From Legionellales bacterium (GTDB lineage: Bacteria > Pseudomonadota > Gammaproteobacteria > JAGOUN01): a stretch of 64,000 nucleotides of DNA. This document shows positions 1 through 59,603 of this stretch, piece after piece (position 1 is the stretch's first letter; each line of letters starts with the position of its first letter). Both the position numbers and the translations under genes were made by a program. The notes beneath the pieces were generated by a model. That model did not search any database and had not been told where the DNA came from. It worked only from the letters and a program-made list of their open reading frames with translations. The stretch lies in contig JAIXPZ010000067.1 in assembly GCA_027486005.1 (NCBI GenBank), positions 2,119 through 66,118 of the forward strand. Direction: 5' to 3'.

Positions 1-1523
1 TTACCTTCCTGGTAAACCGGTTTCATTTGCGCTTTAGAGACACCTAAAATCGCTACTTCAGGTGCGTTCACAATAGGCGTAAACCAGGTGCCGCCTATGC
101 CACCTAAACTGGAAATTGTAAAACATCCACCTTGCATATCTTTCGGTAATAATTTTTGCTGGCGCGCTTTTTCACTAATAACCGCCAATTCCTGAGCAAG
201 CTCATAAACACCTTTACGATCAACGTCACGCACCACTGGAACCACTAAACCATCAGGAGTATCCACCGCAACACCAATATTAAAATATTTTTTCAAAATT
301 AATGATTGAACATCAGCAGACAAAGAAGCATTAAACCGTGGAAATTGTTTAAGCGCGGATACCACAGCTTTCATAATAAAGGCTAATGGGGTTAATTTTA
401 TTCCTTTAGCTTCTGACTCAGCTTTATTTTCTTTTCGGAAAGCCTCTAAACCCGTAATATCTGCTTCATCAAATTGCGTCACGTGCGGAACCACAATCCA
501 GTTACGCCCAAGATTCGTTCCAGTTAAGCGTTTAATTTTACTGAGCGCTTGGGTTTCAATTTCGCCAAATTTACTGAAATCTACTGCTGGCATTTCAGGT
601 AATGTGAAGCCGCTTTTTCCGCCACTTTGTGCAATGACTAATTGTTGCTTCACATAAGTTTGGACGTCTTCTTTAAGGATGCGTCCCTTGGGTCCGGTGG
701 CTTTAACTCGCGTAAGATCGACACCGAATTCACTGGCAATTCTGCGCACAATAGGCGTTGCATGTAAGCTTGAATTAATTGCACTGGCTTCTGCTGTTTT
801 GGTTAATTGATTCAGGCCAATTTCATTGGCCTGAATCCCTCGGTCGGCGCCGGGGGACGACGAAGATTGTAGGGGCAGGTCTTGTACCTGCCCTCTTTCC
901 TGGGCGGGCACAAGGCCAGCCCCTACATTGGCCAAATTATTTTTTGTGGGTGTCGCAGGTTCAAGAGGACGAGCGCCACTCGCCCCTACTATTTTAATTG
1001 ATGCAACTTTATTGCCTTCGGAAACTTTATCCCCTACTTTTACAGTAATGCTTTCAATCACACCGGCAAAAGGTGCCGGCACTTCCATGGTGGCTTTATC
1101 ACTTTCTAAAGTAATTAATCCAGCATCTATTTCTACGTTGTCACCGGGTTTAACATTGATTTCAATCACATCGACTTTATCTGCGCCGCCTAAATCAGGA
1201 ACGATGACATCAATGATTTGTATCGAAGGCTGTAGGGGCAGGTCTTGTGCCTGCCCTTTTTCCTCGGCAGGCACAAGAGCAGCGCCTACAGTCTCAACAG
1301 AAGCTACCTTATCGCCTTCAGAAATCTTATCGCCCACTTTAATAAAAAATTCTTTTATCACACCAGCAAACGTTGCAGGTACTTCCATAGTGGCTTTGTC
1401 ACTTTCTAAAGTCACAATACCTTCATCCACCTGTACCTGATCACCTGGCTTAACGTTTATCTCAATAACATCGACACTTTCAGCACCACCAAGATCTGGG
1501 ACAAAGATTTCTTTAATAGCCAT
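1..1523 (-). CDS. aceF: Pyruvate dehydrogenase E2, dihydrolipoyllysine acetyltransferase (3' end runs off window)
   Basis: Not in ORF track (no stop in window). Hand translation from ATG 1523: two lipoyl domains (VPDLGGA...TLESDKATMEVP x2), E3-binding domain (HATPIVRRIASEFGVDL...GPKGRILKEDV), catalytic-domain motifs (GGCFTISSLGGIGGTWFTPIVNAPEVAILGVS); directly downstream of aceE. Confidence 0.97.
   Translation of the reverse strand, partial: MAIKEIFVPDLGGAESVDVIEINVKPGDQVQVDEGIVTLESDKATMEVPATFAGVIKEFFIKVGDKISEGDKVASVETVGAALVPAEEKGQAQDLPLQPSIQIIDVIVPDLGGADKVDVIEINVKPGDNVEIDAGLITLESDKATMEVPAPFAGVIESITVKVGDKVSEGNKVASIKIVGASGARPLEPATPTKNNLANVGAGLVPAQERGQVQDLPLQSSSSPGADRGIQANEIGLNQLTKTAEASAINSSLHATPIVRRIASEFGVDLTRVKATGPKGRILKEDVQTYVKQQLVIAQSGGKSGFTLPEMPAVDFSKFGEIETQALSKIKRLTGTNLGRNWIVVPHVTQFDEADITGLEAFRKENKAESEAKGIKLTPLAFIMKAVVSALKQFPRFNASLSADVQSLILKKYFNIGVAVDTPDGLVVPVVRDVDRKGVYELAQELAVISEKARQQKLLPKDMQGGCFTISSLGGIGGTWFTPIVNAPEVAILGVSKAQMKPVYQEG
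831..862 (-). repeat. CGTC-type palindromic repeat inside aceF linker 2
   Basis: Minus strand CGTCGTCCCCCGGCGCCGACCGAGGGATTCAG (stem TCCCCCGG/CCGAGGGA), overlapping a second palindrome gattcaggccaa-tttca-ttggcctgaatc (809-837). Confidence 0.6.
869..926. repeat. GTAG-REP inverted doublet (REPIN), type A, inside aceF linker 2
   Basis: gtaggggcaggtcttgtacctgccc (869-893) and inverted gggcgggcacaaggccagcccctac (902-926). Confidence 0.9.
967..989 (-). repeat. GTAG-REP type B inside aceF
   Basis: Minus strand GTAGGGGCGAGTGGCGCTCGTCC; near-identical to copies at 18911-18933 and 59176-59198. Confidence 0.9.
1232..1289. repeat. GTAG-REP inverted doublet (REPIN), type A, forming aceF linker 1
   Basis: gtaggggcaggtcttgtgcctgccc (1232-1256) and degenerate inverted cggcaggcacaagagcagcgcctac (1265-1289). 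Confidence 0.88.
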
Positions 1524-1534
1524 GTTTTTTTCTC

Positions 1535-4213
1535 CTAGACCGTAATCGGATGCGGTTTTGTTTCGTCAATCGCATATTTCTTTTTCGCTTCCACCGCTTT
1601 TTCCAAAGGTAATTCACCTCTTTGCACTAAAGCGACAATCGCTGTATAGGCAACATAATGCCTATCTACTTCAAAAAAACTTCGTAAAGCTTCTCGAGTA
1701 TCACTACGACCAAAGCCATCTGTGCCTAAAACATGATAATCTGTTGTTTTCACATACGCGCGAATTTGATCGGGATACGCACGAATATAATCCGTTGCTG
1801 CAATAATCGGCCCTTTCATTTGCTCCAAACATTCTGCAAGATAGCTTTTAGAAGAATAATCGAGCGAAAGCATTTGTTTCCGCGCGATTTTTTCCGCATC
1901 ACGTTTTAATTCATTAAAGCTAGTCACGCTCCACACGTCAGCTGCAACACCAAAATCTTGTTCTAACAAATCTGCAGCGGCTTGGGCTTCACGCAAAATG
2001 GCGCCTGAACTTAATAAAGTAATATTTAGTTTTGCAATAGCGTCGCTTTTACGTAATCGGTACATCCCCTTGATAATGCCTTCTTCTACACCTTCTGGCA
2101 TCGCTGGATGAGCATATTTTTCATTCATCACCATCACATAATAAAAAATATCTTCTTGATCGGCAAACATGCGCTTTAAACCGCTGTGCACAATCACTGC
2201 TAATTCATAACCAAAGGTTGGATCATAGGCGACACAGGTAGGAACGGTAGCCGCCATAACGAGACTATGTCCGTCTTGATGTTGCAAACCTTCACCGTCC
2301 AATGTTGTTCTACCTGCAGTCCCTCCAAAGAGAAACCCACGAGTACGCATATCAGCCGCGGCCCAAATAAAATCACCAATACGCTGAAAACCAAACATGG
2401 AATAATACGTAAAAATCGGAATCATCGGTAAATTATTCACGCTATACGATGTACCCGCTGCAATCCAAGAAGAAATACATCCTGCTTCAGTGATACCTTC
2501 CATTAAAATTTGGCCATTCTTAGCTTCTTTATAGTTGGATAGCTGCGCTTTATCTTCAGACGTATACCGTTGACCAAGATGCGAATAAATACCAACTTGT
2601 CGAAATAATCCTTCCATACCGAAAGTGCGCACTTCATCTGAAAACATTGGAACAACAAATTTTCCTATTTCTTTATCTTTTAATAAAGCAGAAAGAATAC
2701 GCGCCAATGCCATAGTAGAAGATATTTCTCTATCGCCAGAACCATTCAACATCGCATCAAATAAACTTAAAGAGGGGGTAGGTAGCTTAGGCGCTTCATT
2801 AAAACGCGCTGGCAAGTAACCGCCTAAAATTTTTCGACGTGCTTGTAAATATCTGACTTCTTCACTCTCTGGGCCAGGATGATAGTATTCTAAATTTTTA
2901 ATCTGCTCGTCAGTCACGGGTACTGCAAAGCGATCTCTAAATTGTTGTAACTCTTCAAATGACATTTCAAGTTGATTATGCGCAACATTCTTACTTTCAG
3001 CAGGTGCCAATCCGAATCCTTTAATCGCTTGCAGTAACACCACCACTGGACCTTGCGTATGCTTCACCGCTTGATCTAAAGCCGCGTAGACTTTTTTAGG
3101 ATCATGACCTGCACGACCTAATTTTGCTAATTGCTCATCCGTCATATCCGCTACTAATGCTGCAAGCTCAGGGTCTTTATTGAAAAAATGCTCTCTAAAA
3201 TAAGCCGGGCCATGCGCTGTAAAATTCTGTAAATCGCCGTCGACGAATCCATCTAAGGCTTTTTGTAAAACGCCTTTTTTGTCTTTGGCAAATAATATAT
3301 CCCACTCACTACTCCATACAGCTTTCACCACATGCCAGTTGCAGCCTTTAAATAAACCTTCAAATTCTTCAATAATTTTACTATTGCCACGCACTAAACC
3401 ATCTAAGCGTTGCAAATTACAATTAATGACAAAAACTAAGTTATTTAATTCTTCATTGGCTGCCTGACAAAGTGCGGCACGTGATTCGGGCTCATCCATT
3501 TCACCATCACCACAAAAGACCCATACACGACGGCCTTGGGTGTTTTGCAATCCACGATTTTCTAAATATTTTAAAAACCTTGCGCTATAAACCCCTTGCA
3601 TTTGCCCTAAGCCTAAAGAGACGGTAGCAAACTGCCAAAAAGTCGGCATTAGCCATGGATGAGGATAAGAAGAAAGACCTTCACCACCGATTTCTTGACG
3701 AAAATTATCCAAATGCTTTTGGTCTAAACGCCCCTCTAAATAAGCTCTAGCATAGTTGATCTCAGAGGAGTGCCCCTGAAAATACACTAAATCGCCCATT
3801 TGATCGCCCACTCTTCCTTTAAAAAAGTGATTCAATCCGGCTTCATAGACCGTAGAAATTGAGTTGCAAGAAGAAATGTGACCACCTAGTCCTCCAGGTA
3901 CTTTTCGACGCGAACGCGCAACAATCATTACTGAATTCCAACGATTAATCGCTTCAATTTTAGCTTCCATAGCCAAATCACCAGGATGCGCCGCTTGTTG
4001 CTCCGGTGTAAACGAACTACGATAACCCGTACGCAAAGAAGAAGTGGCGACAGGAACTCCAGAAATCGATGCTTTCTGTAAGACTTGATCCAAAATGAAT
4101 TTAGCTCTGTCAGCGCCCTCTCGCTCGATTAACGAGTCTAATGCCGCCAACCACTCTTGTGTTTCCAATTGATCAAAATCATTTCCACGATTATTTATTA
4201 CGTCATTCGTCAT
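1535..4213 (-). CDS. aceE: Pyruvate dehydrogenase E1 (homodimeric type)
   Basis: 892 aa; GGHISS, GLSSYPHPWLMP, TPP motif GDGEMDEPES...NCNLQRLDG, GEGLQHQDG, LGTDGFGRSDTR. Confidence 0.98.
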   Translation of the reverse strand: MTNDVINNRGNDFDQLETQEWLAALDSLIEREGADRAKFILDQVLQKASISGVPVATSSLRTGYRSSFTPEQQAAHPGDLAMEAKIEAINRWNSVMIVARSRRKVPGGLGGHISSCNSISTVYEAGLNHFFKGRVGDQMGDLVYFQGHSSEINYARAYLEGRLDQKHLDNFRQEIGGEGLSSYPHPWLMPTFWQFATVSLGLGQMQGVYSARFLKYLENRGLQNTQGRRVWVFCGDGEMDEPESRAALCQAANEELNNLVFVINCNLQRLDGLVRGNSKIIEEFEGLFKGCNWHVVKAVWSSEWDILFAKDKKGVLQKALDGFVDGDLQNFTAHGPAYFREHFFNKDPELAALVADMTDEQLAKLGRAGHDPKKVYAALDQAVKHTQGPVVVLLQAIKGFGLAPAESKNVAHNQLEMSFEELQQFRDRFAVPVTDEQIKNLEYYHPGPESEEVRYLQARRKILGGYLPARFNEAPKLPTPSLSLFDAMLNGSGDREISSTMALARILSALLKDKEIGKFVVPMFSDEVRTFGMEGLFRQVGIYSHLGQRYTSEDKAQLSNYKEAKNGQILMEGITEAGCISSWIAAGTSYSVNNLPMIPIFTYYSMFGFQRIGDFIWAAADMRTRGFLFGGTAGRTTLDGEGLQHQDGHSLVMAATVPTCVAYDPTFGYELAVIVHSGLKRMFADQEDIFYYVMVMNEKYAHPAMPEGVEEGIIKGMYRLRKSDAIAKLNITLLSSGAILREAQAAADLLEQDFGVAADVWSVTSFNELKRDAEKIARKQMLSLDYSSKSYLAECLEQMKGPIIAATDYIRAYPDQIRAYVKTTDYHVLGTDGFGRSDTREALRSFFEVDRHYVAYTAIVALVQRGELPLEKAVEAKKKYAIDETKPHPITV

Positions 4214-45253: not shown

Positions 45254-46174
45254 TTATAAAAACAAACCTGATAAAGCCATACTCACCAAGCGTTTATTTG
45301 TCACTTGACCGCTTTGATCAACGTCACCTACACCAAGAAACTTTCCTGCTTCGCTATAAAAACAGGTCGGGGTATTAGGTAGTGGTGAAGCTTTCAAAGT
45401 AATAAGAGCGCCGCGCAATAATTGGCGCCCCAAATCATCATTCAAAGTTTGTCTAGGCCATGCGGCAAGCGCCGCGTCTATAGGTAACAAATAGTGATCG
45501 CGATCAATAGATGATTCTAATTCTTCAAAGGATATCATGGGATAAGCATCAAAAAGCTCAACTAAAGTGCGCCGCAGAGCCGTGACATGTGCGCCACATC
45601 CTAACACTTCCCCAATATCATCAATCAAACTACGGATGTAAGTCCCTTTGCTGCAGTGGACACGAAGGGTTAAGGTTTTTTGAGACGACGACCAATCGGT
45701 CAATTCAAGTGTAAAAATCGTGATAGTTCGCGCAGGTCGATCAATGGTTTCGCCTTTTCTGGCATATTCATATAACGGCCGCCCCTGATGTTTAAGCGCT
45801 GAATGCATCGGAGGAACTTGTTGAATGACGCCAGTGAACTGTGGAAGTATTTGCATCACATCTAAATGGGTAGGGGCAAGCCTTGTACCTGCCCTACAGG
45901 AATCAATAACCTGACCTTCTGCATCCCCAGTATCAGTTCTAACACCTAACATTGCCGTCACTTCATAAGTTTTATTCGCATCTAAAAGATGTTGAGAAAA
46001 TTTTGTCGCTTCACCAAAACATATTGGTAACATGCCTGTCGCTAGCGGATCTAAACTTCCAGTATGCCCTGCTTTAGCAGCATTAAATATACGCTTAACA
46101 CGCTGTAACGCGTGATTGGAAGAGCCACCAAGAGGTTTGTCGAGCAAAAAAATACCGTGAAGTTCGCGCTTCAT
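45254..46174 (-). CDS. truB: tRNA pseudouridine(55) synthase with REP insertion
   Basis: LLDKP, KAGHTGSLDPLATG, QVPPMHSALK, CSKGTYIRSL. Confidence 0.97.
   Translation of the reverse strand: MKRELHGIFLLDKPLGGSSNHALQRVKRIFNAAKAGHTGSLDPLATGMLPICFGEATKFSQHLLDANKTYEVTAMLGVRTDTGDAEGQVIDSCRAGTRLAPTHLDVMQILPQFTGVIQQVPPMHSALKHQGRPLYEYARKGETIDRPARTITIFTLELTDWSSSQKTLTLRVHCSKGTYIRSLIDDIGEVLGCGAHVTALRRTLVELFDAYPMISFEELESSIDRDHYLLPIDAALAAWPRQTLNDDLGRQLLRGALITLKASPLPNTPTCFYSEAGKFLGVGDVDQSGQVTNKRLVSMALSGLFL
45870..45897 (+). repeat. GTAG-REP type A in frame in truB
   Basis: gtaggggcaagccttgtacctgccctac; read on the coding strand as CRAGTRLAPT. Confidence 0.88.
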
Positions 46175-58544: not shown

Positions 58545-59603
58545 TTAACTATAATTTAACGAGCTCAATGCCTTAGTCACTACTTGAATATCAGCGCCTG
58601 GGACATGGCAATGCGTACTTAAATGACGTCGCCATAGGCGTGATCCGGGTAATCCATTGAATATTCCCAACATTGGACGAACTAATGTGGATAATCTGAC
58701 GCCTGCGCTGAGTTGCTCTTCAACATAGGGTAAATATCGTTGAACAACAGTTATTGCACCTTGACGCTGATCCCTCTCCCGCGCTAATCGCGCGACCTCT
58801 CCCGCAAGGGGAGAGGTAACCGAAAAAAGCGCTTCTTCTAGTTCTCTAAAAAAATACGGATTCTCATACGCAGGTCGGCCAACCATGACCCCATCGACAT
58901 GTTCAAGATGCATCAGCGCATCGGAGACTGTTTTGATTGCACCGTTAATCACAATGGTCAATTCTGGAAAATCACGTTTTAATTGATAGACCCAAGGATA
59001 ATTGAGTGGCGGAATTTCGCGATTTTCTTTAGGACTTAGGCCGCTCAACCATGCTTTGCGTGCGTGAACGATTATCTGATGACAACCAGCACGCTGTATT
59101 AAGTCTACAAAGTTTTCTAAGTAACTATATTCTTCTTGTTCATCCACGCCGATGCGACACTTGACTGAAACAAGAGGGCGAGCGCCACTCGCCCCTACGG
59201 CCTCTACTGCAGATTTCATCGCAGCAACACATTCTGCGACCAATGCAGGTTCTTTCATTAAACAAGCACCGAAGCGCCCTTTTTGCACACGATCCGATGG
59301 ACAGCCGACATTTAAATTGATTTCGTCATACCCAAATTCTTTTGCCAGTCGAGCACATTGTGCTAACGCTTCTGGATCACTGCCGCCCACTTGAAGTGCA
59401 ATCGGATGCTCTTCTGGAGAAAAAGCTAAAAAACGTTGGGCATCACCACGCAATAAAGCACCGGTAGTAATCATTTCTGTATACAACAAACAATGTGGCG
59501 ATAATAAACGAATAAAATAACGAAAATGTCTATCCGTCCAGTCAAGCATTGGAGCGAGACAGAGTTTGTGGCGCTGAAAAAAACTACCTTCTCTATGGCT
59601 CAC
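58545..59603 (-). CDS. dusA: tRNA-dihydrouridine synthase A with two repeat insertions
   Basis: APMLDWTDRHFR, LYTEM, NLNVGCPSDRVQKGRFGACLM, VHARKAWLSGLSPKENREIPPL, GVMVGR. Confidence 0.97.
   Translation of the reverse strand: MSHREGSFFQRHKLCLAPMLDWTDRHFRYFIRLLSPHCLLYTEMITTGALLRGDAQRFLAFSPEEHPIALQVGGSDPEALAQCARLAKEFGYDEINLNVGCPSDRVQKGRFGACLMKEPALVAECVAAMKSAVEAVGASGARPLVSVKCRIGVDEQEEYSYLENFVDLIQRAGCHQIIVHARKAWLSGLSPKENREIPPLNYPWVYQLKRDFPELTIVINGAIKTVSDALMHLEHVDGVMVGRPAYENPYFFRELEEALFSVTSPLAGEVARLARERDQRQGAITVVQRYLPYVEEQLSAGVRLSTLVRPMLGIFNGLPGSRLWRRHLSTHCHVPGADIQVVTKALSSLNYS
58772..58816. repeat. CCCTCTCCC-type palindromic repeat in frame in dusA
   Basis: ccctctcccgcgctaatcgcgcga-cctctccc-gcaag-gggagagg; encodes TSPLAGEVARLARERD. 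Confidence 0.75.
59176..59198 (-). repeat. GTAG-REP type B in frame in dusA
   Basis: Minus strand GTAGGGGCGAGTGGCGCTCGCCC, read as VGASGARP. Confidence 0.92.

What the first reader, a model, noticed from the sequence alone, without database searches (positions are those of the whole stretch)
809..1289. The swinging-arm linkers of pyruvate dehydrogenase E2 are built from mobile palindromes
Seen: linker 1 between the two lipoyl domains (VGAALVPAEEKGQAQDLPLQPS) is almost entirely one REP doublet (1232-1289). Linker 2 stacks a type-B REP, a type-A doublet, a CGTC-type repeat and another palindrome. Established: AceF linkers are normally Ala/Pro-rich flexible hinges. Inference: repeat DNA has replaced rather than merely lengthened the native linker. 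The doublet in linker 1 is more decayed than that in linker 2, suggesting separate ages or amelioration under protein-level selection.
Basis: partly seen in the sequence, partly recalled or inferred. Interest (0 to 1): 0.8.

Follow-up and report, generated by a model that had tools for sequence, protein, structure and literature searches.

The report
REP palindromes built into AceF linkers
In an uncultured freshwater bacterium, the flexible hinges of the pyruvate dehydrogenase E2 protein are largely encoded by small repeated DNA palindromes inserted in frame; this is a striking example of a phenomenon already described in other bacteria.

Summary
aceF (minus strand, window 3-1523) encodes two lipoyl domains, an E3-binding domain and a catalytic domain. 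Linker 1 is about 83% one GTAG-type REP doublet (1232-1289). Linker 2 carries a type-B REP (967-989), a second type-A doublet (869-926), a decayed CGTC-type unit (836-863) and a unique perfect 13-bp palindrome (809-837).

Types A and B are genuine dispersed families: 24 and 48 copies in the 1.86-Mb genome, with 0 expected by chance in the window. Type B flanks a RAYT-like transposase gene. The REP-coded residues fall exactly in the two AlphaFold low-confidence interdomain segments.

Close relatives carry different REPs at the same linker sites, and REP-free relatives have unrelated, shorter linkers. Public contigs from other samples reproduce linker 2.

The pattern is genome-wide. 30 of 79 REP copies lie inside long ORFs, and 19 of the 20 such ORFs tested are housekeeping genes. 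These copies sit mostly outside Pfam domains.

The kind is already published. Di Nocera et al. 2013 describe intragenic GTAG/CGTC REPs and list E2 genes in a supplement, and Rickettsia RPEs behave the same way. This is therefore an extreme new member of a known kind. "Replaced rather than lengthened" is only partly supported, and mobility and any function of the hairpins are inferred.

The parts
3..1523 (-). aceF (pyruvate dehydrogenase E2, dihydrolipoamide acetyltransferase). The window holds 507 of its 550 aa; the 3' end lies upstream of the window start.
   Evidence: ORF. Pfam 2x Biotin_lipoyl, E3_binding, 2-oxoacid_dh. Full 550-aa ORF.
1293..1523 (-). Lipoyl domain 1 (aa 1-77)
   Evidence: Pfam. 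AlphaFold pLDDT 81-89.
1221..1292 (-). Linker 1 (aa 78-101, TVGAALVPAEEKGQAQDLPLQPSI); GC 58% against 40% in the lipoyl domains
   Evidence: AlphaFold pLDDT <50 at residues 80-100. GC.
1232..1289 (.). Type-A GTAG REP doublet in linker 1. Arms are 1232-1256 (GTAG head on the + strand, 1 mismatch) and 1265-1289 (head on the - strand, 5 mismatches to consensus A, 4 to the G-variant). Encodes VGAALVPA-EEK-GQAQDLPL.
   Evidence: RNA fold -42.6 kcal/mol, z -6.4.
993..1220 (-). Lipoyl domain 2 (aa 102-177)
   Evidence: Pfam (106-176). pLDDT 79-88.
768..992 (-). Linker 2 (aa 178-252); GC 54%
   Evidence: AlphaFold pLDDT <50 at residues 180-251. GC.
967..989 (-). Type-B GTAG REP (GTAGGGGCGAGTGGCGCTCGTCC, 1 mismatch), encoding VGASGARP. 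Also present at this site in G002 and, as that genome's own variant, in G004.
869..926 (.). Type-A GTAG REP doublet in linker 2. Arms are 869-893 (perfect consensus, head on +) and 902-926 (head on -, 4 mismatches). Encodes VGAGLVPA-QER-GQVQDLPL.
   Evidence: RNA fold -43.3 kcal/mol, z -5.5.
836..863 (-). Decayed CGTC-type palindromic unit (tcgtcGTCCCcCGGcgccgacCGaGGGAt), encoding SSSPGADRG
   Evidence: Family of about 8 loci. The name 'CGTC REP' follows PMC3733652.
809..837 (.). Unique perfect palindrome (13-bp stem, 3-nt loop), encoding GIQANEIGLN. Not a member of any repeat family found.
660..764 (-). E3-binding (peripheral subunit-binding) domain, aa 254-288
   Evidence: Pfam PF02817, E 2.1e-15.
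3..563 (-). Catalytic acyltransferase domain (aa 321 onwards)
   Evidence: Pfam PF00198, E 1.5e-63. The DHRVVDG motif is seen in the alignment.

Best explanation
Short GTAG-headed REP palindromes have become embedded in frame in the two interdomain linkers of aceF. They belong to two families, A and B, of the kind mobilised by RAYT tyrosine transposases. A decayed CGTC-type unit sits beside them.

REPs are GC-rich while this genome is 40% GC. Their open frames therefore spell Gly/Ala/Pro/Val/Leu/Gln-rich peptides such as VGAGLVPA, GQVQDLPL and VGASGARP. The lipoyl 'swinging-arm' linkers are disordered and are constrained mainly in length and composition, so such insertions are tolerated there.

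Once resident, a REP site is reused. Close relatives carry different REP types at exactly the same junctions. The doublet in one linker is a copy of the doublet in the other. Native linker sequence has largely been lost, while total linker length stays within roughly 1.3-1.8 times that of REP-free relatives.

aceF is the most extreme case of a genome-wide habit. More than a third of the REP copies lie inside housekeeping genes, preferentially between or outside folded domains.

Shown: the sequence identities, family membership, reading frame, position in disordered segments, and differences between relatives.
Inferred: that RAYT moved the REPs, that the protein is functional, and that selection keeps length and composition.
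For: REP families and RAYT
- Family A has 24 copies and family B 48 copies at <=4 mismatches in 1.86 Mb. The B-derived 14-mers are the most frequent in the genome.
- A 174-aa ORF at C8:26125-26649 matches NCBIfam REP_Tyr_transpos (E 2.2e-17) and carries an H-F-H motif. It is flanked by inverted perfect type-B REPs.
- Homologues in G002 and G003 are likewise flanked by their own GTAG REPs. The G003 flanks are type-A-like.

Frame and location
- All aceF REP units are read without stops.
- They lie in residues 80-100 and 180-251, which are exactly the AlphaFold segments with pLDDT <50 between well-predicted lipoyl domains.

Turnover between relatives
- G000 and G002 are 93.5-96.9% identical in nucleotides in the folded domains. 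They are only 53% and 73% identical in linkers 1 and 2, with indels.
- In linker 2 both share the type-B REP and the next 40 nt. At the same junction GCCAAT|GTAGGGGCT, G000 then has an A doublet and G002 has a B'-type REP.
- In linker 1, G002 has a single A unit plus a B'-like unit where G000 has the doublet.
- G001 and G005 have no A or B copies and no REP-like linkers.
- The G004 aceF copy is closer to G004's own REP variant (2 mismatches) than to the G000 consensus (4 mismatches) (hand count).

Not an artefact
- A Logan contig of run X4 covers 700-1249 with 0 differences.
- A contig of another study (X7) covers 823-964 with 4 differences.
- X8 and X5 carry a G002-like allele.

Genome-wide pattern
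- 30 of 79 A/B/B' copies are internal to ORFs of >=150 aa.
- 19 of the 20 such ORFs have housekeeping Pfam domains, including SucA, MutL (3 REPs in its linker), NadE, Asd, RsmB, Sua5, TruB and Dus.
- 21 of 29 intragenic units lie outside Pfam envelopes, against 9.4 expected. Per gene the count is 12 of 20, permutation p=0.002.

Composition
- The A+G+P fraction of the linkers is 0.39/0.34 in G000, 0.08/0.18 in REP-free G001, and 0.47 in the classical Ala/Pro linker of G005.

Selection
- aceF REP units differ from family consensus by 6 synonymous and 2 non-synonymous changes (p=0.010). All 37 intragenic copies together give 32 to 38, with 0.295 synonymous expected (p=0.003).
Against: - No transposition event was observed. 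The RAYT-like protein scores below the curated cut-offs: NCBIfam 63 bits against 80, Pfam Y1_Tnp 16.8 against 23. A genome search with PF01797 found nothing.
- No RAYT flanked by type-A REPs exists in this genome, so type A may be immobile here.
- The full doublet (arms plus spacer) occurs only twice in the genome, both times in aceF. The second copy may come from intragenic recombination rather than transposition.
- The centre of the linker-1 doublet (1250-1256) is not bridged by any single contig laid.
- The palindrome 809-837 belongs to no family. The CGTC-type assignment rests on a small family and a decayed copy.
- The synonymous-excess test assumes the family consensus is the ancestor, uses 8 sites in aceF, and its sites are not independent because some are hairpin partners.
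- The Pfam-envelope test used only the best stretch per family. Some N-terminal 'intragenic' copies (for example DapB at aa 29) may lie upstream of the true start.
- No RNA or protein evidence shows that this aceF is expressed.
Confidence: 0.85

Rival explanations
1. Intragenic duplication or gene conversion only. On this view the two linkers resemble each other because the lipoyl-plus-linker module was duplicated in tandem or homogenised. The palindromes would then be a linker feature rather than mobile DNA.
For: The two doublets share a similar spacer and 5 of 7 flanking bases, and they are each other's only 60-nt match in the genome. The lipoyl domains are themselves a direct repeat of 226 nt at 71% identity.
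Against: - The arms are members of families with 24 and 48 dispersed copies, many of them intergenic or flanking a RAYT-like gene.
- The doublets are 87% identical while the adjacent domains are 71% identical, and they are out of register with them: spacing 363 against 300 nt.
- G002, whose folded-domain DNA is 93.5-96.9% identical, lacks both doublets although it has both lipoyl domains. The doublets are therefore far younger than the domain duplication.
- This rival survives only as the route by which the second doublet copy arose.
Confidence: 0.05
2. Assembly artefact. Repeated REP k-mers made the metagenome assembler stitch REP sequence into aceF.
For: The genome is a metagenome-type assembly of 83 contigs. 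Public contigs break inside the linker-1 doublet at 1249/1257.
Against: - The reading frame is intact through both linkers and both lipoyl domains.
- Contigs of another sample cover 700-1249 and 1257-1600 with 0 differences, and a contig of an independent study covers 823-964.
- Independently assembled relatives G002, G003 and G004 carry REPs at the same linker positions.
Confidence: 0.03
3. Co-option. The REP-coded peptides, the mRNA hairpins, or both are now selected parts of AceF. They would act as flexible Gly/Ala/Pro-rich hinge modules in an AT-rich genome, or as translation pause or mRNA-stability sites between domains. This is not exclusive of the best explanation.
For: - Synonymous excess in the aceF REP units, 6 to 2, p=0.010.
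- A type-B unit is retained at the lipoyl-2 boundary in G000, G002 and G004.
- REPs raise the linker A+G+P fraction from 0.08-0.18 (G001) to 0.34-0.39, towards the classical 0.47.
- Very stable hairpins lie exactly between domains.
Against: - REP content turns over quickly between genomes whose folded-domain DNA is 93.5-96.9% identical.
- G001 manages with REP-free linkers.
- The same REPs sit in many unrelated proteins. Di Nocera et al. argue this pattern speaks against a specific function (PMC3733652, passages read).
- There are no expression or ribosome data.
Confidence: 0.12

Closest known systems
Intragenic GTAG- and CGTC-tagged REPs (Di Nocera, De Gregorio, Rocco 2013, BMC Genomics 14:522; PMC3733652). 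Passages and Additional file 3 were searched.
   Same: - Short GTAG-headed palindromes, single or as dimers, read in frame inside genes for known proteins.
- Dimers encode 20-30 aa and clusters encode 43-82 aa.
- The authors suggest that insertions are neutral because they lie in flexible linkers or loops.
- Their supplement lists REPs in E2 genes: Oter_4191, Oter_4192, Sala_1235 and Sala_0526.
- TruB is a recurrent target in their data, and it carries a REP here too.
   Different: - In that paper the E2 cases are single table rows with one unit or dimer each. I could not check whether they lie in linkers.
- Here both linkers of one E2 carry six REP units of three families, making up about 83% and about 48-60% of the linker DNA.
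- REP content is shown here to differ between close relatives at identical junctions.
- The host is an uncultured gammaproteobacterial lineage that is not in that survey.
REPIN-RAYT systems (Bertels and Rainey 2011, PMC3116915, seen in a search listing only; Nunvar 2010 and Ton-Hoang 2012, recalled)
   Same: - Inverted REP doublets occur.
- A single-copy RAYT-like gene is flanked by inverted cognate REPs.
- The families are lineage-specific.
   Different: - Classical REPINs are extragenic and number in the hundreds. Here the families are small (24 and 48 copies) and 38% of copies are intragenic.
- The aceF doublet as a unit has only two copies.
- Type A has no RAYT of its own in this genome.
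Rickettsia palindromic elements (RPEs: Ogata et al. 2000 and 2002, Claverie and Ogata 2003). Recalled, and cited within PMC3733652.
   Same: These are palindromic repeats inserted in frame into many housekeeping genes of a small genome. They are thought to sit on protein surfaces or in loops without destroying function.
   Different: - RPE-1 elements are longer (recalled).
- Sequence relatedness to families A and B was not tested.
- No RAYT link is described for RPE-1 (recalled).
Canonical Ala/Pro-rich lipoyl-domain linkers of E2 proteins (established biochemistry of the 2-oxo acid dehydrogenase complexes, recalled)
   Same: They occupy the same position between lipoyl domains and before the E3-binding domain, are predicted disordered and are enriched in Ala, Pro and Gly.
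   Different: Here the sequence derives from dispersed DNA palindromes, and the DNA and mRNA can form hairpins of -42 to -43 kcal/mol. The family-level relative G005 has the classical Ala/Pro/Gln linker without palindromes.

Membership tests
GTAG-type REP / REPIN-RAYT system | Short (20-40 bp) imperfect palindrome with a GTAG head | tested here: met
   A is GTAG-GGGCAGG-tcttgta-CCTGCCC. B is GTAG-GGGCGAG-tggcg-CTCGCCC.
GTAG-type REP / REPIN-RAYT system | Many dispersed copies in one genome | tested here: met
   24 (A) and 48 (B) copies at <=4 mismatches on many contigs. 0 expected in the window shuffles. These are small families by REP standards.
GTAG-type REP / REPIN-RAYT system | A RAYT (Y1 HUH transposase) gene flanked by inverted cognate REPs | tested here: inconclusive
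   The C8 ORF matches NF047646 at E 2.2e-17 but scores 63 bits, below the 80-bit cut-off. Pfam Y1_Tnp gives E 0.0078, also below cut-off, and the PF01797 genome search was negative. The flanking by perfect inverted type-B REPs is clear. Homologues in G002 and G003 are also REP-flanked. There is no type-A REPtron in G000.
GTAG-type REP / REPIN-RAYT system | Predominantly extragenic location | tested here: not met
   30 of 79 copies are internal to ORFs of >=150 aa, and 19 of the 20 such ORFs have Pfam domains. Di Nocera et al. accept intragenic units as part of the families.
GTAG-type REP / REPIN-RAYT system | Mobilisation of REPs or doublets by RAYT | not testable with these tools
   Only presence/absence differences between relatives were seen: aceF and Dus.
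CGTC-type REP (Di Nocera 2013) | CGTC head, 8-9 bp stem, short loop, repeated family | tested here: inconclusive
   About 8 loci match cgtcGTCCCGCGG-7nt-CCGCGGGA. The loop is 7 nt, against 4-5 in the paper's Table 1. The aceF copy has 2 stem mismatches.
Pyruvate dehydrogenase E2 (AceF) | Lipoyl domain(s), E3-binding domain and catalytic acyltransferase domain with DHRxxDG, next to aceE | tested here: met
   Pfam. DKA lipoyl-lysine motifs and DHRVVDG are seen. The 892-aa ORF directly upstream (1535-4213) is aceE-like and lpdA-like sequence lies downstream; both are named from their sequence and position, with no family search of either.
Rickettsia palindromic elements | Sequence membership in RPE families | not tested
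   There is only a functional resemblance (in-frame palindromes in housekeeping genes). No RPE sequence was compared.

The most novel reading that the evidence does not exclude
In this AT-rich, compact genome, GC-rich REPs may serve as a standing supply of ready-made Gly/Ala/Pro-rich hinge modules. On this reading, disordered linkers (AceF, MutL, NadE, Sua5, RsmB, Asd) are both a safe harbour where the REP population persists and a beneficiary of it. Resident REPs would be swapped for current family variants at fixed junctions by RAYT-mediated REP-for-REP replacement. The -42 kcal/mol hairpins placed exactly between domains would act as translation pause sites that help the lipoyl domains fold one at a time.
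Probability: 0.1. Interest if true: 0.7.

Novelty: new member of a known kind. Interest (0 to 1): 0.4.

Why it matters
This is a clean natural experiment on how much sequence freedom a swinging-arm linker has. An essential central-metabolism enzyme tolerates hinges built mostly from selfish palindromic DNA, and close relatives carry different palindromes at the same junctions.

It also extends the 'protein-coding palindrome' phenomenon, best known from Rickettsia and a few free-living species, to an uncultured freshwater gammaproteobacterial lineage. Here a RAYT-like gene is still present, so the link between REP mobilisation and protein evolution could be tested.

The principle is already published, so the value is as a vivid, well-resolved example and a possible model rather than a new concept.

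Tried and rejected
- PF01797 search of the whole genome found no RAYT. The gene was found instead by inspecting a 745-bp interval between inverted type-B REPs.
- blastn-short and fuzzy searches found no second copy of palindrome 809-837 in the genome or in 5 relatives. It cannot be called a repeat.
- The earlier-findings index held nothing for this genome.
- The search for related loci returned only distant or unnamed relatives (best 67% identity). It gave no taxon name beyond 'Gammaproteobacteria bacterium' MAGs.
- The tandem-duplication origin of the doublets was considered and rejected on register and age.
- A first batch fold failed because one item was over the length limit. It was repeated without that item, so the 201-nt whole-linker-2 fold was not done.
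- Literature searches for lipoyl + linker + palindromic + in-frame and RAYT/REPIN + coding/in-frame found no paper that discusses REPs in lipoyl linkers specifically. The only mention found is the supplement table of PMC3733652.
- In run X4 no single contig bridges 1250-1256, and in X5, X7 and X8 parts of the stretch have no cover. This is not evidence either way.
- A scan of 88 aceF-like ORFs from other genomes for perfect hairpins (stem >=9) found only sporadic 9-11 bp stems. Only this gene has stems of 13 bp. This is a crude screen that misses imperfect REPs.
Full report
THE GENE

The ORF on the minus strand at window 3..1523 runs off the window start. In the full contig it is 550 aa. Pfam finds two Biotin_lipoyl domains, an E3_binding domain (aa 254-288) and the 2-oxoacid_dh catalytic domain from aa 321. 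It follows an 892-aa aceE-like ORF (1535-4213) and precedes an lpdA-like ORF. I named these two neighbours from their sequence and position; no family search was run on either. This is aceF.

The genome (G000) is 1.86 Mb in 83 contigs, 40% GC and 99.7% complete. Its nearest named relatives are only 'Gammaproteobacteria bacterium' MAGs. Runs holding the sequence are freshwater or wastewater metagenomes.

THE OBSERVATION

(i) Type-A doublets. Two 67-nt stretches, 861-927 and 1224-1290, are 87% identical. Each is an inverted repeat whose arms are 85-86% complementary. The arm GTAGGGGCAGGTCTTGTACCTGCCC occurs 5 times in the window at <=3 mismatches, with 0 in 100 shuffles. It occurs 24 times in the genome at <=4 mismatches.

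(ii) Type-B REP. 967-989 is a 1-mismatch copy of GTAGGGGCGAGTGGCGCTCGCCC. That family has 48 copies at <=4 mismatches, and its 14-mers are the most over-represented in the genome.

(iii) CGTC-type unit. 836-863 resembles a small family, cgtcGTCCCGCGG-7nt-CCGCGGGAt, found at about 8 loci. The aceF copy has two stem mismatches. The GTAG/CGTC nomenclature is that of Di Nocera et al. 2013 (PMC3733652).

(iv) Unique palindrome. 809-837 is a perfect 13-bp stem with a 3-nt loop. Perfect stems of >=12 bp are rare: 69 rows genome-wide against 1 in a shuffle. This one has no second copy in the genome or in five relatives, so it is real but is not shown to be a repeat.

Reading frame. On the coding strand the units read:
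- GTA GGG GC. gives V-G-A.
- Type A forward gives VGAGLVPA, and type A reverse gives GQVQDLPL.
- Type B gives VGASGARP.

Share of each linker.
- Linker 1 (aa 78-101, window 1221-1292) is 58-60 nt of doublet out of 72 nt.
- Linker 2 (aa 178-252, window 768-992) holds about 109 nt of family-assigned REP DNA, plus the 29-nt unique palindrome, out of 225 nt.
- The linkers are 58% and 54% GC, against 40% in the lipoyl domains.

ARE THESE REPs IN THE STRICT SENSE?

Both families have the GTAG head followed by an imperfect hairpin. Many copies sit just after stop codons.

Between two perfect inverted type-B copies on contig C8 lies a 174-aa ORF with these properties:
- it matches NCBIfam NF047646, 'REP-associated tyrosine transposase', at E 2.2e-17 (63 bits, below the 80-bit equivalog cut-off);
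- it matches Pfam Y1_Tnp weakly (E 0.0078);
- it has H81-F-H83 and a Tyr at 141.

The direct PF01797 genome search missed this ORF. A remnant with the same flanks lies on C70.

Homologues exist in G002 (two plus a fragment) and in G003 (one). None was found with this query in G001, G004 or G005. Each homologue is flanked by its own inverted GTAG REP, and the G003 flanks are type-A-like.

REP copy numbers track this distribution:

| Genome | Type A copies | Type B copies |
|---|---|---|
| G002 | 12 | 18 |
| G003 | 2 | 1 |
| G004 | 0 | 7 |
| G001 | 0 | 0 |
| G005 | 0 | 0 |

The system therefore has the anatomy of REPtrons. Mobilisation itself is inferred.

WHERE IN THE PROTEIN?

An AlphaFold2 model built on an 11-sequence alignment gives the following:

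| Segment | Residues | pLDDT |
|---|---|---|
| Lipoyl domain 1 | 1-79 | 81-89 |
| Linker 1 | 80-100 | <50 |
| Lipoyl domain 2 | 101-179 | 79-88 |
| Linker 2 | 180-251 | <50 |

All REP-coded residues fall in the two low-confidence segments. The lipoyl-lysine DKA motifs, the E3-binding domain and the DHRVVDG catalytic motif are intact. The protein therefore looks functional, which is an inference.

RELATIVES

Four genomes of the same genus and one of the same family were compared.

G002, whose AceF is 92-93% identical to G000's:
- Folded-domain DNA is 93.5-96.9% identical to G000, but linkers 1 and 2 are only 53% and 73% identical, with indels.
- In linker 2 both genomes share the type-B REP and the following 40 nt. 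At the identical junction GCCAAT|GTAGGGGCT, G000 then has the A doublet and G002 has a B'-type REP (GTAGGGGCTACCGGCGGTCGCCC) plus a repeat of the 'ESATSTKN' tail.
- In linker 1, G002 has a single A unit, followed by a B'-like unit where G000 has the second arm. That A unit, GTAGGGGCTGGCCTTGTGCCCGCCC, is letter-for-letter the left arm of G000's linker-2 doublet.

G004 and G003 carry B-like units at corresponding places. The G004 copy is nearer to G004's own genomic variant (2 mismatches) than to the G000 consensus (4 mismatches) (hand count).

G001 has no A or B copies and has short Ser/Thr/Asn-rich linkers. G005 has one lipoyl domain and a classical Ala/Pro/Gln linker.

'REPLACED RATHER THAN LENGTHENED'

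Linker lengths in aa:

| Genome | Linker 1 | Linker 2 |
|---|---|---|
| G000 | 23 | 74 |
| G002 | 27 | 60 |
| G003 | 21 | 69 |
| G004 | 23 | 56 |
| G001 | 13 | 56 |
| G005 | n/a (one lipoyl domain) | 60 |

G000 carries about 20 REP-coded residues in linker 1 and about 47 REP- or palindrome-coded residues in linker 2. Yet it is only 10 aa and 14-18 aa longer than the REP-free proteins. Both lengthening and loss of other linker sequence have therefore occurred. The claim is partly supported, and the ancestral linker is unknown.

The A+G+P fraction rises from 0.08/0.18 in G001 to 0.39/0.34 in G000, compared with 0.47 in G005.

ORIGIN OF THE SECOND DOUBLET

The two doublets share the spacer (AGGAAAGA and GAGGAAAAA) and are each other's only 60-nt match in the genome. 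One is therefore a copy of the other, or both derive from a lost source.

They are out of register with the lipoyl repeat (363 against 300 nt), more similar to each other than the domains are (87% against 71%), and absent from G002. This excludes an origin in the old domain duplication.

I cannot tell whether the copy arose by REPIN-type transposition or by intragenic recombination.

The linker-1 doublet is a little more diverged from consensus (1+5 mismatches against 0+4). Both still fold as long hairpins of -42.6 and -43.3 kcal/mol (z -6.4 and -5.5).

SELECTION

Relative to family consensus, the aceF units carry 6 synonymous and 2 non-synonymous changes, with 0.295 synonymous expected (p=0.010). 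All 37 intragenic copies at <=5 mismatches give 32 to 38 (p=0.003).

This fits protein-level constraint after insertion. It rests on few, non-independent sites and on the assumption that the family consensus is the ancestor.

NOT AN ARTEFACT

- Contigs of run X4 (same study, another sample) cover 700-1249 and 1257-1600 with 0 differences.
- A contig of an independent study (X7) covers 823-964 with 4 differences.
- X8 and X5 carry a G002-like allele: 118 nt at 800-917 are replaced by 76 others, with many changes in linker 1.
- No single contig laid bridges 1250-1256. That gap remains open.

GENOME-WIDE CONTEXT

30 of 79 A/B/B' copies lie internal to ORFs of >=150 aa. 19 of the 20 such ORFs have housekeeping Pfam domains:
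- SucA (two units near the N-terminus)
- MutL (three units in the linker between the DNA_mis_repair and MutL_C domains)
- NadE (a doublet between the two domains)
- Asd, RsmB and Sua5 (interdomain)
- TruB, Dus, LpxB, MurG, NuoG, a heptosyltransferase, a GHMP kinase, UDG, DapB, chorismate lyase, a PD-(D/E)XK protein, SufD, and a 1169-aa protein

21 of 29 intragenic units lie outside Pfam envelopes, against 9.4 expected. Per gene the count is 12 of 20, permutation p=0.002. This used best-stretch envelopes only, and some N-terminal cases may be upstream of the true start.

In Dus, the perfect type-B unit of G000 is absent from G002, whose Dus is 95% identical. In TruB the unit is shared with G002, while G003 and G004 have other insertions in the same loop.

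Among 88 aceF-like ORFs from other genomes, none has perfect stems as long as the two 13-bp stems here (a crude screen).

WHAT IS KNOWN

Di Nocera et al. 2013 (PMC3733652; abstract, passages and supplement searched) describe the following:
- GTAG and CGTC REPs inside genes of several species.
- Dimers encoding 20-30 aa and clusters encoding 43-82 aa.
- Recurrent TruB targets.
- The idea that insertions are neutral because they lie in flexible linkers or loops.

Their Additional file 3 lists REP-coded residues in E2 genes: Oter_4191 (2-oxoglutarate dehydrogenase E2), Oter_4192 (dihydrolipoamide acetyltransferase), Sala_1235 (PDH E2) and Sala_0526. Rickettsia RPEs are the classical parallel (recalled, and cited there).

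Two further literature searches found no paper that discusses lipoyl linkers built from REPs.

VERDICT

The kind is known, so this is an unusually complete example. It involves both linkers, three families and junction-specific turnover between close relatives, in a genome where over a third of REPs are protein-coding and a RAYT-like gene persists.

Mobility, function of the protein, and any role of the hairpins are inferred.

Interest 0.4.

Noticed in passing
G000 contig C8:25931-26698 (L111); remnant at C70:22278-22573: A REPtron: a 174-aa RAYT-like ORF (NF047646, E 2.2e-17, below cut-off) flanked by perfect inverted type-B REPs. A second locus with the same flanks keeps only the last ~28 codons.
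   Followed up: yes
G000 C12:12605-12758, C27:42244-42397, C53:11931-12084, C30:10507-10658: Units of about 153 nt bounded by inverted type-B REPs with GTAG heads facing inward. The inner sequence is similar between loci. They look like MITEs or long REPINs.
   Followed up: partly
Genome-wide: A second abundant repeat of about 20 copies, unrelated to the REPs. Its 14-mers include CCCAGCCTGCGCTGGGG, GTGTCATTCCTGCGAAGGCAGGAAC and TTATCAATGAGTTAAAAATGCTGAC. It is probably a longer MITE.
   Followed up: no
window 45870-45894 (TruB) and 59176-59198 (Dus): REPs are read in frame inside the TruB_N and Dus domains. The Dus unit is absent from G002, whose Dus is 95% identical. The TruB loop carries different insertions in G003 and G004, so the same loops are hit repeatedly.
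   Followed up: yes
window 21852-25358 (1169-aa ORF with a Pyr_redox_2 domain): This ORF carries a B'-type REP at 24400-24422 and a perfect type-A REP at 24601-24625 in frame. Another perfect type-A unit lies at its very 5' end (21863-21887).
   Followed up: partly
window 18859-18933: Three B-like units lie in tandem with a 26-nt period. Two are AAAGGGGCGACTGGGGCTCGCCC and one is a perfect type B. They are intergenic by the ORF test.
   Followed up: no
G000 C56:13216-13388 (MutL), C33:13630-13687 (NadE), C2:33235-33346 (SucA): MutL has three REPs of three types in its interdomain linker. NadE has a type-A doublet between its CN_hydrolase and NAD_synthase domains. SucA has two inverted type-B units with a duplicated 33-nt tail near its N-terminus.
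   Followed up: partly
L003, L004 (aceF of G003, G004); G004 REP copies: The REP at the lipoyl-2 boundary resembles each genome's own REP variant rather than a shared ancestral sequence. This suggests REP-for-REP replacement or conversion at a fixed junction.
   Followed up: partly
L062 (Legionella maceachernii aceF locus), L024 (G032 aceF): In L062 a GTAG-headed perfect 11-bp palindrome lies just upstream of, or at the start of, the aceF frame. In L024 a 10-bp hairpin lies between the two lipoyl domains. Both are isolated hints that E2 linkers or leaders attract palindromes elsewhere.
   Followed up: no
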